Shown: positions 52,869-60,367 of the stretch, piece after piece | Layout: each line of letters begins with the position of its first letter | Numbering within the stretch: position 1 is the stretch's first letter | Source of the DNA: Lachnospiraceae bacterium | GTDB lineage: Bacteria > Bacillota > Clostridia > Lachnospirales > Lachnospiraceae | NCBI GenBank assembly: GCA_009779895.1 | Contig: WRBB01000016.1 | Coordinates: forward strand, 2,363-66,362 | DNA: 64,000 nt | Direction: 5' to 3' | Made by a program: the position numbers and the translations under genes | Notes under the pieces: generated by a model | Seen by the model: the letters and a program-made list of their open reading frames with translations, nothing else | Told to the model about the DNA's origin: nothing | The model's database searches: none

Positions 52869-54635
52869 CTAATCCAAAAACTCATTCACTTTACGTTTCT
52901 TATAAGAAGTATGTAAGATGTGATGTGCTTTATCTGCACCCGGTCCACCAACCAAATAGTCATCATACAACTTAATGATAGATGGATTTTTATGGGATTT
53001 ACGATATTCTCTCTTTACATCAATGTCATAAAGGACTTTTGCACGCAAACCTCTTACATCTGTGTGATTCCATGTTTCTGCATCACAATGTGGTTGCCCG
53101 CCGCCTGCAACGCAACCGCCCCAGCATCCCATCACTTCTATGAAGTCATAATCCGATGTACCGGCACGTACCTGATCCAAAATTTTCTTGGCATTGGTCA
53201 TACCGGAAGTAACAGCAATTTTCACGTCCTTGCCTGCCACATGAATGGTAGCCTCTTTGATGCCGTCCATACCACGTACTGCATGGAAATCTACATCTTT
53301 CAGTTCTTTATTTTCCAATCGTGCCACAAGGGTACGAAGTGCTGCTTCCGCAACACCGCCGGATGCACCAAAGATAACACCAGCTCCTGTAGAGTCTCCC
53401 ATGATATCATCGAATTTTTCATCCGGAAGATTACGGAAATCCAAACCAACTTTACGAATCATACGAGCCAATTCCCTTGTAGTAATAGAATAATCCACAT
53501 CAGGTATCCCCGGACCGGCCGCACTTTGGTCATCACGACCCGCTTCGTATTTTTTCGCTGTACAAGGCATAATACTGACGGATACAATATCTTTTGGATC
53601 AATCTTCTTTTCTGTAGCATAATAAGTCTTTGCAACTGCACCAAACATCTGCTGTGGCGATTTACAACTAGAAAGATTTTCTATCAATTCCGGATAATAA
53701 TGCTCACAGAATGATACCCAACCCGGCGAACAAGATGTAAACATCGGCATCTTGCCTACACCATCAATCAAACGCTTGCGGAACTCTTCCGACTCTTCCA
53801 TAATCGTCAAATCCGCACCAAAACAGGTGTCATACACACCATCAAACCCAATTCTTCTAAGAGCCGCTGCCATCTTGCCTTCCACGTCCGTCCCGATAGG
53901 ATAACCAAACTCTTCACCAAGAGCCGTACGCACAGAAGGAGCCGGTTGCACCACTACATACTTGGTCGGATCTGCAATGGCGGCCAACACTTCATCAATA
54001 TATGGTTTTTCTTGCAAAGCCGCTGTCGGGCAAACACTAACACATTGGCCGCAATGAATACAGCTGGTATCTCCCAGACCCATTTCAAAGGGCGAACCAA
54101 TCACCGTATCAAAACCACGATTGTTTGGTCCGATAACCGCTACATGCTGGCGTTGCTCACAGATAGAAGTACATCTGCGACATAAAATACATTTGTTGTT
54201 GTCACGAATTAAATGAGGCGCGGTTGTGTCAATTTCATGAATTGGTCTGTCTCCATCATAAAAACCGGAATCCTCTACGCCTAACTCTTGGCACATAGAC
54301 TGAAATTCACAGTTTCCACTACGCACACACTCCAAACAACGTCTGTCATGAGCAGAAAGCATCAACTCCAAGGTTTTCTTTCTAGACTTGATAAGCTGTG
54401 GGGTCGCTGTTAATACTTCCATGCCATCTGTTGCAGGATGTACACAAGCCGCCACTAGGTTTCTGGCACCTTTTACTTCCACCACACAAACACGACAGGC
54501 ACCGATTTCATTAATTTCTTTAAAATAACACAGGGTAGGAATCTTTACCCCAGCGAGATGGGCTGCATCCAAAATAGTAGAACCTTTGGGAGCAGATACC
54601 TCAATACCATTGATTTTTAACTTTATATTTTCCAT
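52869..54635 (-). CDS. hydA: [FeFe]-hydrogenase catalytic subunit (HydA/HndD type, multi Fe-S N-terminus) with an atypical P1 motif
   Basis: 588 aa. N-terminal 2Fe-2S (CYFKEINEIGACRVC), His-ligated cluster (HDRRCLECVRSGNC) and two 4Fe-4S motifs. H-cluster motifs: P1 TSCSPGW (canonical TSCCPxW), P2 MPCTAKKYE, P3 EVMGCWGGCVAGGGQP. Confidence 0.93.
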   Translation of the reverse strand: MENIKLKINGIEVSAPKGSTILDAAHLAGVKIPTLCYFKEINEIGACRVCVVEVKGARNLVAACVHPATDGMEVLTATPQLIKSRKKTLELMLSAHDRRCLECVRSGNCEFQSMCQELGVEDSGFYDGDRPIHEIDTTAPHLIRDNNKCILCRRCTSICEQRQHVAVIGPNNRGFDTVIGSPFEMGLGDTSCIHCGQCVSVCPTAALQEKPYIDEVLAAIADPTKYVVVQPAPSVRTALGEEFGYPIGTDVEGKMAAALRRIGFDGVYDTCFGADLTIMEESEEFRKRLIDGVGKMPMFTSCSPGWVSFCEHYYPELIENLSSCKSPQQMFGAVAKTYYATEKKIDPKDIVSVSIMPCTAKKYEAGRDDQSAAGPGIPDVDYSITTRELARMIRKVGLDFRNLPDEKFDDIMGDSTGAGVIFGASGGVAEAALRTLVARLENKELKDVDFHAVRGMDGIKEATIHVAGKDVKIAVTSGMTNAKKILDQVRAGTSDYDFIEVMGCWGGCVAGGGQPHCDAETWNHTDVRGLRAKVLYDIDVKREYRKSHKNPSIIKLYDDYLVGGPGADKAHHILHTSYKKRKVNEFLD

Positions 54636-54652: not shown

Positions 54653-56461
54653 CTATTCTCTAACAATCGCCGCAATCTTCGGTGGGCATTTTTCCATACA
54701 AACACCGCACTTCACACAATCCTCTTGTCGAATCACATATACGCCTTTTTTCTTGCCTTCCATTTCTACATTGTCAATACAATTGGTCGGGCAATTCTTC
54801 GCACAAATACCACAGCCAATACACTTATCAGCAAGAACTTTGTATTGCAGCAACTCTTTACATTTTCCGGCAGGACACTTGTGATCTTTAATATGCGCAA
54901 GATACTCGTCTTTAAAGTAATCAAGAGTAGAAAGTACAGGGTTTGGAGCCGTTTGGCCCAAAGCACACAAAGAAGAAGTTTGAAGATGACGACACAGCTC
55001 TTCCAACTTATCCAAATCTTCCATAACCGCTTTGCCCTCTGTAATCTTGTCCAAAATCTCCAGCATGCGTTTGGTACCAACACGACAAGGTGTACATTTT
55101 CCACAAGACTCTTCTACAGTAAACTCTAAGAAAAACTTGGCAATATCAACCATACAATCATCTTCATCCATAACAATCAAGCCACCGGAACCCATCATGG
55201 AACCGATTTTTAATAGATTTCCAAAATCAATGGGCACATCATAATGAGCACGTGGAATACAACCACCGGATGGCCCACCTGTTTGCGCAGCCTTAAACTT
55301 CTTGCCGTTTGGTGTACCACCACCAATTTCTTCCACTACCTCACGCAAAGTCGTACCCATAGGAATCTCTACCAAACCAATATTTTTAACTTTCCCACCA
55401 AGGGCAAATACTTTGGTTCCCTTAGAATCTTCTGTACCCATACTCGCAAACCATTCCGGTCCGTTTAAGATAATTTGAGGCACATTTGCAAAGGTTTCTA
55501 CGTTATTTAAAATCGTCGGCTTAACAAATAAACCTTTTTCCGCAGGGAATGGAGGACGTGGTCTTGGTTCGCCACGATGCCCCTCAATGGAAGTCATCAA
55601 AGCTGTCTCTTCTCCACAAACAAAAGCACCCGCACCTAATCTAAGCTCTATATCAAAATCAAAACCACTGCCAAAAATATCTTTTCCTAATAAGCCATAT
55701 TCTCTCGCTTGATCAATGGCAATTTGCAAACGATCTACTGCAATGGGATACTCTGCACGAATATATACATAACCTTGATGTGCGCCGATGGTATAACCGG
55801 CTATAGCCATCGCTTCAATGACAGAATGGGGATCACCCTCCAAGATGGAACGATCCATAAAAGCACCCGGGTCACCCTCATCGGCATTGGCACAAACATA
55901 TTTGAAATCCGAATCATTGCCCAACGCAAATTTCCACTTCAAGCCCGTTGGAAAACCGGCTCCGCCACGACCTCTTAATCCACTATCTAACATAATCTGG
56001 ATAACTTCTTCTGGCGTTTTTTCTGTCAAAACCGTACCCAGTGCTTCATAACCTCTGTTCCCAATGTACTCTTCTATGCATTCCGGATCAATCACACCAC
56101 AGTTACGCAAAGCAACTCTGTGTTGTTTTTTGTAAAAATCAGTTTCATTCAAGGCGATAATTTCGCCCTCTTTCACTGTTTCATCATATAACAGTCTTTC
56201 GACCACTCTTCCCTTTAATAAATGCTCTGAAACAAGCTCTGCAATATCCTCTTCTTTTACCATAGAATAGAAAGAACCTTCCGGGTAAACAATCAAAATA
56301 GGACCTAAAGCACAAAGACCAAAACATCCTGTTTCAACAACGCTTACTTCTTCCGCAAGGCCTTGGATGCCGATTTCTTCTTCTAGTTTTTTTATAATGC
56401 CAACGCTACCGGAAGATTGACAGCCGGTACCACCGCAAACTAAGACATGTGAACGATACAT
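54653..56461 (-). CDS. hydB: NuoF-like NAD(P)H-binding flavoprotein subunit of the hydrogenase (HydB/HndC)
   Basis: 602 aa. N-terminal thioredoxin-like 2Fe-2S, GRGGAGFPTG FMN/NADH site, SLBB, and a 4Fe-4S plus two C-terminal ferredoxin-type clusters. Confidence 0.93.
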   Translation of the reverse strand: MYRSHVLVCGGTGCQSSGSVGIIKKLEEEIGIQGLAEEVSVVETGCFGLCALGPILIVYPEGSFYSMVKEEDIAELVSEHLLKGRVVERLLYDETVKEGEIIALNETDFYKKQHRVALRNCGVIDPECIEEYIGNRGYEALGTVLTEKTPEEVIQIMLDSGLRGRGGAGFPTGLKWKFALGNDSDFKYVCANADEGDPGAFMDRSILEGDPHSVIEAMAIAGYTIGAHQGYVYIRAEYPIAVDRLQIAIDQAREYGLLGKDIFGSGFDFDIELRLGAGAFVCGEETALMTSIEGHRGEPRPRPPFPAEKGLFVKPTILNNVETFANVPQIILNGPEWFASMGTEDSKGTKVFALGGKVKNIGLVEIPMGTTLREVVEEIGGGTPNGKKFKAAQTGGPSGGCIPRAHYDVPIDFGNLLKIGSMMGSGGLIVMDEDDCMVDIAKFFLEFTVEESCGKCTPCRVGTKRMLEILDKITEGKAVMEDLDKLEELCRHLQTSSLCALGQTAPNPVLSTLDYFKDEYLAHIKDHKCPAGKCKELLQYKVLADKCIGCGICAKNCPTNCIDNVEMEGKKKGVYVIRQEDCVKCGVCMEKCPPKIAAIVRE

Positions 56462-56487: not shown

Positions 56488-56859
56488 CTATTTTTGTGTT
56501 GTGCCTACTGTATATTTTCTAACAATCTGACCACCCTTGACGTGCATACGCATCACTTCCAATGCTTTCTCAGGGGTCATATTAACATAAGTCACCTTAT
56601 CTTTGCCCGGTTCCATCACTTCCAGAATTGGCTCATACTGACACAGTCCGATACAACCTGTTTGACTCACATTGACATTGGCTAAATGCTCTTCCTGCAC
56701 CATCTGTGCAACCGCTGCTAAAATCGGTCTTGCACCTGCGGCAATTCCACAAGTTGCCATGCCAATTACAACTCTTGTTTGCTCGGGACCTTCATAACGC
56801 ATACCAATGGTACCTTGTACCTTCTCCCGAATTGCTTTTAATTCATCCAGAGATTTCAT
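56488..56859 (-). CDS. Thioredoxin-like [2Fe-2S] ferredoxin (HndB-like)
   Basis: 123 aa. ATCGIAAG...CIGLCQYEP motif pattern. Confidence 0.8.
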   Translation of the reverse strand: MKSLDELKAIREKVQGTIGMRYEGPEQTRVVIGMATCGIAAGARPILAAVAQMVQEEHLANVNVSQTGCIGLCQYEPILEVMEPGKDKVTYVNMTPEKALEVMRMHVKGGQIVRKYTVGTTQK

Positions 56860-57422
56860 ATTTTTCCTCCATTTTCATCATCCACTTCCTTTTTATTCTC
56901 TACCAAATAATCTTTGATAAACAGGGAAACCTCCCTTTGAGAAAAAGAAACATCCTCTCCCACAATCTCCCGCATCTCTCTGGTATCCAAAGTAAACACT
57001 CTTTCATCATAGGAATAGGTGTATCTAAAGTGTGTGTGTTCATTAAATACAACCAATGTATATATTGTTTCGCTCATATCCCCAAGGGGCATTCGATCAA
57101 TATGTGACAATCGAAATACCGACTCGACCTTTGTTCCCTTACCTGCTTCAGAGGTAATCTCAAAACCTCCGCCTGTCATCTCTGCTGCCTGCTTTAAAAA
57201 AGGTACACCCAAACCGACTTTTCGCGTGGTTCGTGTAGTAAAGAAAGGGTCTTGCACCTGCTCTAACTGCTGCACACTCATACCACAACCATCATCTTTT
57301 ATCAAAACCGTAAGGGTATCCTCCTTTGTACAAATCGCCACCGTAATTTCAATCAGCTTTGCGTCGGCACGGACAGAGTTTTCCGCCACATCCAAAATAT
57401 TTAGGGATATTTCCGGCATCAT
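56856..57422 (-). CDS. Stand-alone GHKL (HATPase_c) ATP-binding protein embedded in the hydrogenase operon
   Basis: Preferred start is MMPEISLNILDVAENS (22 aa shorter than the track ORF). N box DVAENS, G1 DDGCGM, G2 GLGVP. No HisKA/DHp domain. Confidence 0.8.
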   Translation of the reverse strand: MMPEISLNILDVAENSVRADAKLIEITVAICTKEDTLTVLIKDDGCGMSVQQLEQVQDPFFTTRTTRKVGLGVPFLKQAAEMTGGGFEITSEAGKGTKVESVFRLSHIDRMPLGDMSETIYTLVVFNEHTHFRYTYSYDERVFTLDTREMREIVGEDVSFSQREVSLFIKDYLVENKKEVDDENGGKI

Positions 57423-57426
57423 AAGT

Positions 57427-57921
57427 TTATTCGTATTGTGCCAACATCGGATCGATATCATCCAATGTAAGACGCCCGTGTACATCACTGTTAATGGTTA
57501 AAACAGGAGCCAAACCACAAGCACCTATGCAACGACATCCATCCAATGAAAACTTACCATCCGGTGTACACTCACCACCTTTGATGCCTAGTTTTTTTTC
57601 GATAACCTCAAAGATGTCTCCGGCCCCAATCACATAACAAGCCGTTCCCAGACAGACAGAAATATGATATTTACCTTTTGGTGTTAGTGAGAATTGGGAA
57701 TAAAATGTAACGATTCCGTACACTTTTTCCAAAGAAATACCCGTCTCATCTGAAATCATTGTTTGCACTTCAATGGGCAAATATCCATAAATATCTTGCG
57801 CCTTTTGCAAAATGGGCATCAACGCGCCCCTTTCATCCTTGTGTGCAGCAATCATTGCCAATAGCTGCTTTTCCTGTTCCTTTGTCCCTTCAAAAGGAGG
57901 GACTTGTGTTCTTTCAAGCAT
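57427..57921 (-). CDS. hydC: NuoE-like [2Fe-2S] subunit of the hydrogenase (HydC/HndA)
   Basis: Preferred start is ATG 57921 (MLERTQVPPF, GGAGG about 8 nt upstream). CLGTACYV...CRCIGACGLAP cluster motif. Confidence 0.9.
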   Translation of the reverse strand: MLERTQVPPFEGTKEQEKQLLAMIAAHKDERGALMPILQKAQDIYGYLPIEVQTMISDETGISLEKVYGIVTFYSQFSLTPKGKYHISVCLGTACYVIGAGDIFEVIEKKLGIKGGECTPDGKFSLDGCRCIGACGLAPVLTINSDVHGRLTLDDIDPMLAQYE

Positions 57922-58119
57922 GAAATAACCTCCATTTCTTTCGTCAATGATGAATAACAATACAAATTCATCCTACCATAAACGTACAAAACTTTCTAGT
58001 AACGCACAATCATTTTGTGATATTTTTTTGGCATTCTTTTGCCTAATGTATTCAGATATCATTGCCTTTCATGAAATCAAGTGCTATACTTTTAGATATT
58101 ATTGTATAAAATGCACAAG

Positions 58120-58193: not shown

Positions 58194-58538
58194 ATGAAAA
58201 TCAAAGAAATTCAAGATATTTTAGAGGCTAAAATTTTATGTGGTGCGCATCTACTTGATACAGACGTAACCCATGCTTGTGCGGCCGATTTGATGAGTGA
58301 CGTTTTGGCTTACGACCACAGCAGCTCCGTTTTGCTCACCGGTCTATGCAATCCACAAGTTGTACGCACTGCTGAAATGTTGGACATCCGCTGTTTGGTT
58401 TTTGTCCGCAACAAAGCACCCGATGAACAAACCTTAGAACTTGCCAAGAGCAAAGACATCGTTGTTATGACTACCTATCACATGATGTTTTCTTCTTGTG
58501 GGCTCTTATACCAAAATGGTATGCGAGGAGGTGCCTAG
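58194..58538 (+). CDS. DRTGG domain protein
   Basis: 114 aa. CAADLMSDVL...LLTGL pattern typical of small DRTGG proteins. AGGAGA RBS. Confidence 0.75.
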   Translation: MKIKEIQDILEAKILCGAHLLDTDVTHACAADLMSDVLAYDHSSSVLLTGLCNPQVVRTAEMLDIRCLVFVRNKAPDEQTLELAKSKDIVVMTTYHMMFSSCGLLYQNGMRGGA

Positions 58539-58540
58539 TC

Positions 58541-58963
58541 TTGGCTACACACCACATTTTAAATTATGTTGTACCCGGTGATGATTTTACACGAGCCGGT
58601 GAAGCCAGCAGTGCGGTAAAAAACACCTTAAAACAACTTGGCATCGACAACGCTGCCATTCGTAAGGTTTCCATTGCCATCTACGAGGGGGAAATCAATA
58701 TGGTTATTCATGCCGGCGGCGGAACCATCACGGTAGACATCAGCGATCAAGAGGTTGCCATGATTCTACAAGATAAAGGACCAGGTATTGCTGATATTAG
58801 CAAAGCTATGGAAGAAGGATTTTCTACGGCACCTGATGAAATTCGTTTATTAGGCTTTGGTGCCGGTATGGGCTTACCCAATATGCGTAAATTTACTGAT
58901 GAATTTAATCTACAATCTACCCTTGGCATTGGTACCACCGTTACTATGAAAGTTAAGTTCTAA
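58541..58963 (+). CDS. Anti-sigma-factor-like serine kinase / GHKL ATPase (RsbW/SpoIIAB-like)
   Basis: Preferred start is TTG 58541 (GGAGG about 9 nt upstream, 2 nt after the preceding stop); the track ORF starts at 58496 inside the upstream gene. G1 DKGPGI and G2 GAGMGLPNM. Confidence 0.7.
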   Translation: MATHHILNYVVPGDDFTRAGEASSAVKNTLKQLGIDNAAIRKVSIAIYEGEINMVIHAGGGTITVDISDQEVAMILQDKGPGIADISKAMEEGFSTAPDEIRLLGFGAGMGLPNMRKFTDEFNLQSTLGIGTTVTMKVKF

Positions 58964-58981
58964 ATTTATAAGGATTTTGAT

Positions 58982-60367
58982 ATGGAAAATAATATTGATA
59001 AATTTGTCTGTTCCGTTCGCTTAGAAGAGGAGCTATGTAAGGGCTGTATCAACTGTATCAAGCATTGCCCTACCCAAGCCATTCGCGTACACAAAGGCAA
59101 AGCACGCATCATTGACCGATTCTGCATTGACTGCGGACGTTGTGTGCGCTATTGTCCCCACCATGCAAAAGTGGCTGATTATGATCCGATTTCCATCATT
59201 AGCAAATATAAGTATGTGGTTGCTTTACCTGCACCGGCACTTTATGCCCAATTTCAAAATTTAAATAATGTAGACTACGTACTCAATGCCCTTTTGCGTT
59301 TGGGCTTTGATGATGTGTATGAAGTCAGTGCCGCAGCTGAATTGGTCTCACATGCCTCACGTGAATTTTTGAAAAAACACAAAAACCAAGGTACCTTTAT
59401 TAGCTCCGCCTGCCCCTCTGTCATTCGTCTGATTCGGGTAAAATTTCCTACGCTTCTACCACGCTTATTGCCCATCAAAGCACCTGTAGAAGTTGCCGCT
59501 GAAATTGCCAAAGAAAGAGCCATTACACAAACAGGACTCGCTCCCGAAGACATTGGCATTATCTTTATTTCGCCATGCCCCTCCAAAGTATCTTATGTAA
59601 AATATCCATTAGGTCTGGAAAAAAGTACGATTAACCATGCGGTAGCCATCAAAGATATTTATCCCTTACTGCTCCCCCACATGAATATGAAAGAAAGTCA
59701 ATTAAAGCCTCTTTCCCATTCCGGCCGCATTGGTTTAGGTTGGGGAAATGCAGGTGGTGAAGTCAGTGGTTTATTAACCGACAGTTACTTATCCGCTGAT
59801 GGCATTACCAATATCATTCGGGTTTTAGAAGATTTGGAAGACGAAAAAATATATAGTATGAAATTTGTTGAATTAAGTGCCTGTAGTGGTGGTTGCGTGG
59901 GTGGTATTTTAAATGTAGAAAATCCATATTTGGCCGCGCACAAAACCCAAAGACTCAAAAAATATCAACCTGTTTCAAAAAATCGTGCTGAACACAATCC
60001 GGAACTAAAAGACATTTTCTGGGAAGAAAAAATCGAATACGAACCTGTTTTTCGCTTGGGTAATAATTTTAGAGAAAGCTTAAATATGCTGCAAGAAGTA
60101 GAAAAGCTGGTGAAATTATTTCCAGGTTTTGATTGTGGTTCCTGCGGCGCACCTACTTGCCAAACCTTGGCTGAAGATATTGTGCGAGGAGATGCCCAGA
60201 TTAACAATTGCATTCATTTGCTTCGGACACATGTTTATGAACTGGCCAAGGACATACAAGTGCTGTCTATGTCACCGGAGTTAGATTCGGACCATGAAGA
60301 TACACAAAAGATTAAAAAACATATTGAAGAATTGATGGAGAAATTGGCAGAGTTTACAATATCCTGA
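58982..60367 (+). CDS. HydS-like (sensory-type) [FeFe]-hydrogenase homologue without a PAS domain
   Basis: 461 aa. Two N-terminal ferredoxin motifs (CKGCINCIKHCP, CIDCGRCVRYCP). Degenerate H-cluster motifs SSACPSV, SPCPSKVSY and LSACSGGCVGG. An extra C-terminal CGSCGAPTCQ...C cluster motif, then a helical tail. Confidence 0.8.
   Translation: MENNIDKFVCSVRLEEELCKGCINCIKHCPTQAIRVHKGKARIIDRFCIDCGRCVRYCPHHAKVADYDPISIISKYKYVVALPAPALYAQFQNLNNVDYVLNALLRLGFDDVYEVSAAAELVSHASREFLKKHKNQGTFISSACPSVIRLIRVKFPTLLPRLLPIKAPVEVAAEIAKERAITQTGLAPEDIGIIFISPCPSKVSYVKYPLGLEKSTINHAVAIKDIYPLLLPHMNMKESQLKPLSHSGRIGLGWGNAGGEVSGLLTDSYLSADGITNIIRVLEDLEDEKIYSMKFVELSACSGGCVGGILNVENPYLAAHKTQRLKKYQPVSKNRAEHNPELKDIFWEEKIEYEPVFRLGNNFRESLNMLQEVEKLVKLFPGFDCGSCGAPTCQTLAEDIVRGDAQINNCIHLLRTHVYELAKDIQVLSMSPELDSDHEDTQKIKKHIEELMEKLAEFTIS

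What the first reader, a model, noticed from the sequence alone, without database searches (positions are those of the whole stretch)
53715..53745. Catalytic [FeFe]-hydrogenase carries TSCSPGW instead of the canonical TSCCPxW H-cluster motif
Seen: codons ACA TCT TGT TCG CCG GGT TGG (Cys 53730-53732, Ser 53727-53729) give MFTSCSPGW. P2 (MPCTAKKYE) and P3 (EVMGCWGGCVAGGGQP) are canonical. Established knowledge: in Clostridium pasteurianum CpI the motif is TSC299C300P. C299 is the proton-relay residue, and C300, the residue just before Pro, ligates the [4Fe-4S] part of the H-cluster. Here the ligand position is Ser. Extra cysteines absent from CpI occur just downstream (WVSFCEH and NLSSCKSPQQ), and one of them could conceivably substitute. 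The HydS-like paralogue in the same window shows the opposite pattern (SSACPSV: relay Cys lost, ligand Cys kept). Inference: this may be a naturally Ser-ligated or re-wired H-cluster, a lineage-specific variant, or a sequencing error.
Basis: partly seen in the sequence, partly recalled or inferred. Interest (0 to 1): 0.6.

Follow-up and report, generated by a model that had tools for sequence, protein, structure and literature searches.

The report
Known serine-ligand [FeFe]-hydrogenase variant
This hydrogenase gene does encode serine where textbook [FeFe]-hydrogenases have an iron-sulfur-binding cysteine, but the change is a widespread natural variant already published for the active, structurally solved Acetobacterium woodii enzyme, so it is ordinary.

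Summary
hydA (52869-54635, minus strand, 588 aa) reads MFTSCSPGW, with Cys302 encoded by TGT (53730-53732) and Ser303 by TCG (53727-53729). Gap-free alignments to C. pasteurianum CpI and T. kivui HydA put Ser303 on the cubane ligand (CpI Cys300) and Cys302 on the proton-relay Cys299.

It is not a sequencing error. All 120 nearest database homologues (69-79% identity) read TSCSPGW. The Ser form occurs in 32 of 401 sampled genomes of the phylum, against 124 with TSCCP, and all four TCN codons are used.

The best solved relative is A. woodii HydA1 (PDB 7Q4V, 55% identity), which has the same motif. Katsyv et al. 2023 (PMC10021017) state that Ser301 replaces the cysteine ligand of the H-cluster cubane. 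They report no effect on the FTIR signature and similar catalytic activity.

The "rewired" idea is not supported. Cys310 is Ile in A. woodii and variable in other Ser-type enzymes, and Cys324 is equally common in canonical enzymes.

The gene sits in an A. woodii-like hydC-GHKL-hydD-hydB-hydA operon. The genome has hydE, hydF and hydG, and no other catalytic-type hydrogenase.

Verdict: an ordinary member of NCBIfam "NADH-dependent [FeFe] hydrogenase, group A6". Already known, low interest.

The parts
52869..54635 (-). hydA: catalytic subunit of a HydABC-type [FeFe]-hydrogenase, 588 aa. It has an N-terminal 2Fe-2S domain, a NuoG-type 4Fe-4S domain, a 2x[4Fe-4S] domain, the H-domain and a small-subunit-like C-terminus.
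   Evidence: Pfam PF13510, PF10588, PF12838, PF02906 (E 2.5e-97) and PF02256. NCBIfam NF040763 FeFe_hydrog_A6 scores 849.8 bits against a cut-off of 765. Best PDB hit is 7q4v_A, A. woodii HydA1, E 5.8e-204, 54.8% identity.
53718..53738 (-). P1/L1 motif T300-S-C302-S303-P-G-W306. Cys302 is the proton-relay residue (CpI C299). Ser303 sits at the [4Fe-4S]H ligand position (CpI C300, A. woodii Ser301).
   Evidence: Sequence; alignments; published statement on Ser301Aw.
53706..53708 (-). Cys310 (WVSFCEH). It is clade-specific and not a general feature of Ser-type enzymes.
   Evidence: Cys in 120/120 nearest homologues. It is Ile in A. woodii and I/V/L/M/G in 25 of 32 Ser-type representatives. A, I, L, V and M are also seen among genome hits.
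53664..53666 (-). Cys324 (LSSCKSPQQ). This Cys is common in canonical enzymes too, so it is not compensatory.
   Evidence: Present in 56 of 114 Cys-type and 22 of 32 Ser-type representatives.
53562..53564 (-). P2 ligand Cys358 (MPCTAKKYE)
   Evidence: column conserved.
53112..53126 (-). P3 ligands Cys504 and Cys508 (EVMGCWGGCVAGGGQP)
   Evidence: columns conserved.
54653..56461 (-). hydB: NuoF-like FMN/NAD(H) subunit with an N-terminal 2Fe-2S domain and a C-terminal 2x[4Fe-4S] domain.
   Evidence: Pfam PF01512 and PF10589. Best PDB hit is 7q4v_B, A. woodii HydB, E 4.8e-274.
56488..56859 (-). Small thioredoxin-like [2Fe-2S] protein, 123 aa, in the position of hydD.
   Evidence: Weak PF01257 match. 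PDB matches are to the N-terminal 2Fe-2S domains of HoxF- and NfnB-type subunits.
56856..57488 (-). GHKL-type ATPase gene inside the operon; the start codon is uncertain.
   Evidence: PF02518, E 1.1e-14.
57427..57960 (-). hydC: NuoE-like [2Fe-2S] subunit.
   Evidence: PF01257, E 4.7e-50. Best PDB hit is 7q4v_C, A. woodii HydC, E 5.1e-50.
58982..60367 (+). Divergently transcribed HydS-like (sensory-type) hydrogenase paralogue, 461 aa. P1 reads SSACPSV: relay Cys lost, ligand Cys kept.
   Evidence: PF02906 at 1.5e-30 plus PF04060; sequence.

Best explanation
The gene encodes the catalytic HydA subunit of an Acetobacterium woodii-type, NAD(H)- and ferredoxin-linked (electron-bifurcating/confurcating) HydABC [FeFe]-hydrogenase. 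In this subunit one of the four protein ligands of the [4Fe-4S] part of the H-cluster is naturally a serine (Ser303) instead of a cysteine. The other three ligands (Cys358, Cys504 and the bridging Cys508) are intact, as is the proton-relay Cys302. Shown here: the sequence, its alignment to the ligand position, its conservation, the operon and the presence of maturases. Inferred from the published homologue: Ser303 takes the ligand role itself, the enzyme assembles a normal H-cluster with HydE/F/G, and it is catalytically active. This is a long-standing and recurrent variant. It is present in about a fifth of group-A-like sequences, not only in this genome.
For: The motif and its register were verified. 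120 of 120 nearest homologues read TSCSPGW. The NCBIfam group A6 model is matched above its cut-off. The best solved relative, A. woodii HydA1 (7q4v, 54.8% identity), has the same TSCSPGW. Katsyv et al. 2023 (PMC10021017) state that a cysteine ligand of the A1 cluster is replaced by Ser301 in HydABC-Aw. [quoted passage not shown] HydB and HydC also have A. woodii 7q4v chains as best solved relatives. The genome holds hydG, hydF and hydE above cut-off in one cluster. It has no TSCCP-type gene. Its other three H-domain proteins are sensory-type. In a 401-genome phylum sample the Ser (TCN) form is in 32 genomes of 21 genera, with zero control hits and all four TCN codons used, against 124 genomes with the Cys form. 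Among 150 representatives of 50%-identity clusters the ligand column is Cys in 114 and Ser in 32.
Against: No experiment or structure exists for this particular protein. At the resolution of the cited cryo-EM work, a direct Fe-O(Ser) bond is a modelled assignment, not a spectroscopically proven one. I could read only the main text, because the supplement with Figure S4i is not held. This clade has an invariant extra Cys310 that A. woodii lacks, so a different ligation in this clade is not strictly excluded. Reads could not be inspected.
Confidence: 0.9

Rival explanations
1. Re-wired cluster: Ser303 is a bystander, and a nearby extra cysteine (Cys310 in WVSFCEH or Cys324 in LSSCKSPQ) supplies the fourth thiolate to [4Fe-4S]H.
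For: Cys310 is invariant in the 120 nearest homologues. It is somewhat commoner in Ser-type representatives (7 of 32) than in Cys-type ones (13 of 114).
Against: A. woodii HydA1 has Ile at the 310 position and is active with Ser301 described as the ligand. 25 of 32 Ser-type representatives have I, V, L, M or G there. Several Ser-type sequences lack both extra cysteines, for example P0126, P0176, P0227, P0257 and P0261. Cys324 is present in half of the canonical Cys-type enzymes. Position 310 lies seven residues along the helix that starts at the motif. By inference that places it roughly 10 A from the ligand site; this was not measured.
Confidence: 0.04
2. Sequencing or assembly error, or a decaying gene. 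The true codon would be TGY (Cys), or the enzyme would be inactive.
For: None beyond the departure from the textbook motif. Reads could not be checked.
Against: The ORF is intact and full length and scores above the family cut-off. TCG is two base changes from TGT or TGC. 120 of 120 homologues from independent assemblies share Ser. Synonymous TCT, TCG, TCA and TCC codons occur across genomes. It is the only catalytic-type hydrogenase in a genome that keeps hydEFG.
Confidence: 0.01
3. The Ser variant marks a functionally shifted enzyme rather than a neutral equivalent of the canonical one. The shift could be in [4Fe-4S]H potential, catalytic bias or O2 behaviour.
For: The Cys/Ser state changes at least 6 times on supported branches of a tree of representatives. 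It is fixed within large clades. Gly in P-G-W is commoner with Ser (85%) than with Cys (38%).
Against: The published FTIR signature and activities of the Ser-type A. woodii enzyme resemble those of the Cys-type T. kivui enzyme. The tree is poorly resolved, and the label is no more clustered than in shuffles. The column associations are not corrected for phylogeny.
Confidence: 0.15

Closest known systems
Acetobacterium woodii HydA1 of the electron-bifurcating HydABC(D) hydrogenase (PDB 7Q4V, 7Q4W, 8A5E; Katsyv et al. 2023, PMC10021017)
   Same: Same domain architecture and length (588 vs 583 aa), 54.8% identity, and an identical TSCSPGW motif with Ser at the cubane-ligand position. P2 and P3 are of the same type and LSSCKSPQ is the same. 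HydB and HydC are also the closest solved relatives of the neighbouring genes. The operon content is the same: hydC, a GHKL gene, a small 2Fe-2S gene, hydB and hydA.
   Different: A. woodii has Ile (FIET) where this protein and its clade have Cys310 (FCEH). P3 reads MACPGGC in A. woodii and MGCWGGC here. The organism here appears to be a Lachnospiraceae-like fermenter rather than an acetogen, so the physiological direction is probably H2 production (inference).
Thermoanaerobacter kivui HydA (PDB 8A6T) and Thermotoga maritima HydA (PDB 7P5H), canonical-motif bifurcating HydABC enzymes
   Same: Same complex type and H-domain. The relay Cys and the P2 and P3 ligands are the same.
   Different: T. 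kivui HydA (8A6T) shows the canonical TSCCPSW in the alignment, with Cys299Tk as the ligand. T. maritima HydA (7P5H) is only a listed PDB hit here; its canonical motif is from memory.
Clostridium pasteurianum CpI (PDB 4XDC and others)
   Same: M3-type F-domain plus H-domain, aligned over residues 7-581 (E 3e-151). The proton-relay Cys299 equivalent is kept.
   Different: CpI is monomeric and ferredoxin-dependent. Its Cys300 ligand is Ser here.
Melainabacteria ACD20 trimeric hydrogenases noted by Di Rienzi et al. 2013 (PMC3787301)
   Same: The same TSCSPGW departure from TSCCPAW was noted in confurcating-type hydrogenases.
   Different: Those sequences also lose a P3 cysteine (replaced by Ile). 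The window's protein keeps both P3 cysteines.

Membership tests
[FeFe]-hydrogenase group A, NAD(H)-linked multimeric type (NCBIfam NF040763 'NADH-dependent [FeFe] hydrogenase, group A6'; HydABC/A3-type) | Full-length match to the family model above its curated cut-off | tested here: met
   849.8 bits against a cut-off of 765, covering model positions 1-571 of 571
[FeFe]-hydrogenase group A, NAD(H)-linked multimeric type | H-domain (PF02906) plus small-subunit-like C-terminus (PF02256) and an N-terminal 2Fe-2S / NuoG-type / 2x[4Fe-4S] F-domain | tested here: met
[FeFe]-hydrogenase group A, NAD(H)-linked multimeric type | P1 motif TSCCPxW, with a relay Cys followed by a ligand Cys | tested here: not met
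   The motif reads TSCSPGW: relay Cys302 is present and the ligand is Ser303. The same departure is present in the characterised family member A. woodii HydA1. The strict textbook motif is therefore not defining for this subfamily.
[FeFe]-hydrogenase group A, NAD(H)-linked multimeric type | P2 MPCxxKxxE and P3 ExMxCxxGCxxGGGxP | tested here: met
   MPCTAKKYE and EVMGCWGGCVAGGGQP
[FeFe]-hydrogenase group A, NAD(H)-linked multimeric type | Adjacent NuoF-like HydB and NuoE-like HydC genes | tested here: met
[FeFe]-hydrogenase group A, NAD(H)-linked multimeric type | H-cluster maturases HydE, HydF and HydG in the genome | tested here: met
   TIGR03956 566.8 bits, TIGR03918 547.8 bits and TIGR03955 819.5 bits. 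All are above cut-off and clustered at G000:C1:88344-91987.
[FeFe]-hydrogenase group A, NAD(H)-linked multimeric type | H2 turnover coupled to NAD(H) and ferredoxin (bifurcation/confurcation) | not testable with these tools
   Inferred from homology to A. woodii HydABC
Ser-ligated [4Fe-4S]H subclass (A. woodii HydA1 type) | Ser at the CpI-Cys300 position, with the other three Cys ligands and the relay Cys intact | tested here: met
Ser-ligated [4Fe-4S]H subclass (A. woodii HydA1 type) | Direct Fe-O(Ser) coordination in the folded enzyme | not testable with these tools
   Only the published description of the A. woodii structure is available. The tools give no coordinates.

The most novel reading that the evidence does not exclude
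In this Lachnospiraceae-like clade the Ser ligand comes with an invariant extra Cys310 two helical turns away. Most sister sequences also carry a second extra Cys directly before the first P3 ligand (EIMCCPGGC). The Ser/Cys state has switched repeatedly in group-A hydrogenases. The boldest reading not excluded is that Ser ligation is a selected tuning device for the [4Fe-4S]H potential or catalytic bias in NADH-linked enzymes. In this clade the spare cysteines could then allow a redox- or O2-dependent ligand swap, that is, a protective or regulatory alternative ligation.
Probability: 0.07. Interest if true: 0.55.

Novelty: already known. Interest (0 to 1): 0.1.

Why it matters
It matters mainly for annotation. 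TSCSPGW should not be flagged as an error, a pseudogene or a dead enzyme. The textbook rule that 'TSCCPxW is required' is too strict for roughly a fifth of group-A-like [FeFe]-hydrogenases. The remaining open question is small and is not specific to this window: whether O-ligation of the H-cluster cubane is neutral or tunes potential and bias. That can be tested with Ser-to-Cys swaps in any of these enzymes.

Tried and rejected
Conservation was used instead.

2. Literature: a full-text search for 'TSCSP' and 'TSCSPGW' found only Di Rienzi 2013. The key statement came from a search on HydABC, A. woodii and cryo-EM. The supplement of PMC10021017, which has Figure S4i showing the Ser ligand, is not held. 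Two 'find' calls failed on terms that were too short.

3. Compensating cysteine: I tested whether Cys310 or Cys324 co-vary with Ser. They do not in any way that would make them necessary.

4. Single-origin clade: a FastTree of 128 H-domains from 50%-identity representatives is poorly resolved. It needs 17 changes, and at least 6 are forced by supported branches. The label is no more clustered than in shuffles. I therefore claim only 'recurrent', not a dated origin.

5. Second-sphere package: a scan for columns associated with Ser gave only modest frequency shifts uncorrected for phylogeny, for example Gly305 at 85% vs 38%.

6. Structure prediction was not run. The tool returns no coordinates, so Cys310-to-cluster distances could not be measured, and a solved homologue already exists.

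7. The AGY-serine form of the motif was not counted, so the Ser tally of 32 in 401 genomes is a lower bound.

Full report
**Observation.** The plus strand at 53718-53738 reads cca acc cgg cga aca aga tgt. On the minus strand this is ACA TCT TGT TCG CCG GGT TGG, which is T300-S-C302-S303-P-G-W306 of a 588-aa ORF at 52869..54635. P2 (MPCTAKKYE) and P3 (EVMGCWGGCVAGGGQP) are present. The paralogue at 58982..60367 (+) reads FISSACPSVI.

**Register.** HMMER alignments of the protein to C. pasteurianum CpI (4xdd), T. kivui HydA (8a6t) and A. woodii HydA1 (7q4v) have no gaps through the motif.
- Counting back in the CpI chain places CpI Cys299 on Cys302 and CpI Cys300 on Ser303.
- It is established knowledge that Cys299 is the proton relay and Cys300 a cubane ligand. 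One search agrees: Katsyv et al. name Cys299 of T. kivui, the residue before Pro, as a ligand of the A1 cluster.

**Not an error.**
- A word-indexed search of about 5.8 billion proteins returned 120 listed homologues at 69-79% identity. Many are named 'NADH-dependent [FeFe] hydrogenase, group A6'. All 120 read TSCSPGW, all have Cys at position 310, and all have LSSCKSP.
- A back-translated pattern (T-S-C-S[TCN]-P-x-W, then 18 codons, then K-S-P) was run over 401 genomes sampled from the window's phylum. It hit 32 genomes in 21 genera, with zero hits for the reversed control. TCT, TCG, TCA and TCC all occur at the Ser codon.
- The same pattern with Cys hit 124 genomes in 87 genera. The Ser form is thus about a fifth of such genes, old enough to have drifted through all four synonymous codons.
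- The window's own genome has no TSCCP-type gene.

**What the gene is.**
- Pfam finds a 2Fe-2S domain, a NuoG-type 4Fe-4S domain, a 2x[4Fe-4S] domain, the H-domain and the small-subunit-like C-terminus.
- NCBIfam NF040763 (FeFe_hydrog_A6) is matched end to end at 849.8 bits, against a cut-off of 765.
- Upstream on the same strand lie a NuoF-like HydB (54653..56461), a 123-aa thioredoxin-like 2Fe-2S protein (56488..56859), a GHKL ATPase (56856..57488) and a NuoE-like HydC (57427..57960).
- The best solved relatives of HydA, HydB and HydC are all chains of the A. woodii HydABC structure 7q4v, with E 5.8e-204, 4.8e-274 and 5.1e-50. HydA identity is 54.8% over 575 aligned residues.

**What is already known.**
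- A. woodii HydA1 carries the same TSCSPGW.
- Katsyv et al. [quoted passage not shown] - Di Rienzi et al. 2013 (PMC3787301) had already noted TSCSPGW in Melainabacteria hydrogenases.
- The variant is therefore documented structurally, spectroscopically and enzymatically in a close relative.

**The compensating-cysteine idea.**
- A. woodii reads WIKFIETYY, so it has Ile at position 310, yet it is active.
- I took the best 150 hits of an exhaustive HMMER search of 1.84 billion cluster representatives and aligned them, leaving out the 4122-aa P0122 and adding P0001. The ligand column is Cys in 114, Ser in 32, Ala in 2 and Thr in 1.
- Position 310 is Cys in 7 of 32 Ser-type and 13 of 114 Cys-type sequences. 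Position 324 is Cys in 22 of 32 Ser-type and 56 of 114 Cys-type sequences.
- Several Ser-type sequences have neither extra cysteine. Neither cysteine is needed for, or specific to, the Ser state.
- Cys310 is a trait of this clade only. A role there cannot be strictly excluded, but nothing requires one.

**Evolution.** I built a FastTree of 128 complete H-domains with the motif columns removed. It needs 17 Cys/Ser changes, and at least 6 are forced by well-supported branches. The label is no more clustered than in shuffles. The tree is poorly resolved, so I conclude only that the switch is recurrent.

**Is the enzyme likely functional here?**
- The genome is 2.53 Mb, 96.8% complete. It encodes HydG, HydF and HydE above their curated cut-offs in one cluster on contig 1.
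- It has four H-domain proteins. These are this HydA, the HydS-like paralogue in the window, and two H-domain/histidine-kinase fusions with QPCP-type P1 motifs.
- The Ser-type HydA is thus the only catalytic-type hydrogenase that the maturases could serve. This argues strongly for function (inference).

**Earlier notes of this scan.** The index holds 80 notes on the same motif in at least 78 genomes. The eight shown all carry follow-ups that reach the same conclusion. I reached it independently before opening them, and I re-tested the 'about a fifth' figure.

**Verdict.** Natural Ser ligation is right. Re-wiring and sequencing error are rejected. The variant is already known, so this is an ordinary member of a characterised family and of low interest. 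The only residual question is whether O-ligation is neutral or tunes the cubane. That question is generic to the family and needs bench work.

Noticed in passing
window 53124-53129 (Gly503-Cys504), compared with homologues P0002-P0120: 104 of the 120 nearest homologues read EIMCCPGGCVNGGGQP, with an extra Cys directly before the first P3 ligand. The window has EVMGCWGGC (Gly, and an unusual Trp after the ligand), and A. woodii has MACPGGC. Many Ser-type enzymes of this clade therefore carry a CC pair in P3. Its significance is unknown.
   Followed up: partly
G000:C12:23957-24634 (L003) and G000:C9:46507-47166 (L004): Two large proteins (open frames of 1161 and 982 aa) fuse an N-terminal 2x[4Fe-4S] domain plus an H-domain to a histidine-kinase module. 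Their P1 reads IAQPCPSIV or ITQPCPAIV, with no relay Cys. They are putative H2- or redox-sensing kinases.
   Followed up: partly
window 58496-60367 (+): An RsbW/SpoIIAB-like GHKL kinase (155 aa) sits directly upstream of the HydS-like paralogue (461 aa; SSACPSV, ISPCPSKV, LSACSGGCVGG, and a C-terminal PF04060 Fe-S domain). The pair is divergent from the hydC-hydA operon, which suggests a sensory or regulatory unit for the hydrogenase.
   Followed up: no
window 56856-57488 (-): A stand-alone GHKL ATPase gene lies between hydC and the small 2Fe-2S gene, with overlapping start and stop codons. It has no HisKA or receiver domain.
   Followed up: no
protein P0122 (representative library): A 4122-aa predicted protein has seven separate stretches matching the hydrogenase (1727 bits). 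It is either a giant multi-H-domain fusion or a mis-called or mis-assembled ORF.
   Followed up: no
proteins P0171 and P0196: Some representatives have lost both the relay Cys and the ligand Cys (SSASPAW, SSSSPAW) while keeping STCKSP or SSCKSP. They may be non-catalytic or sensory derivatives of group-A enzymes.
   Followed up: no
genomes G154, G222, G330 (same family as the window): None of the three sampled genomes of the window's own family has the Ser (TCN) pattern, and G154 has a TSCCP-type gene instead. The Ser-type operon is therefore patchy within the family. This could reflect loss, transfer, or the strictness of the pattern.
   Followed up: no
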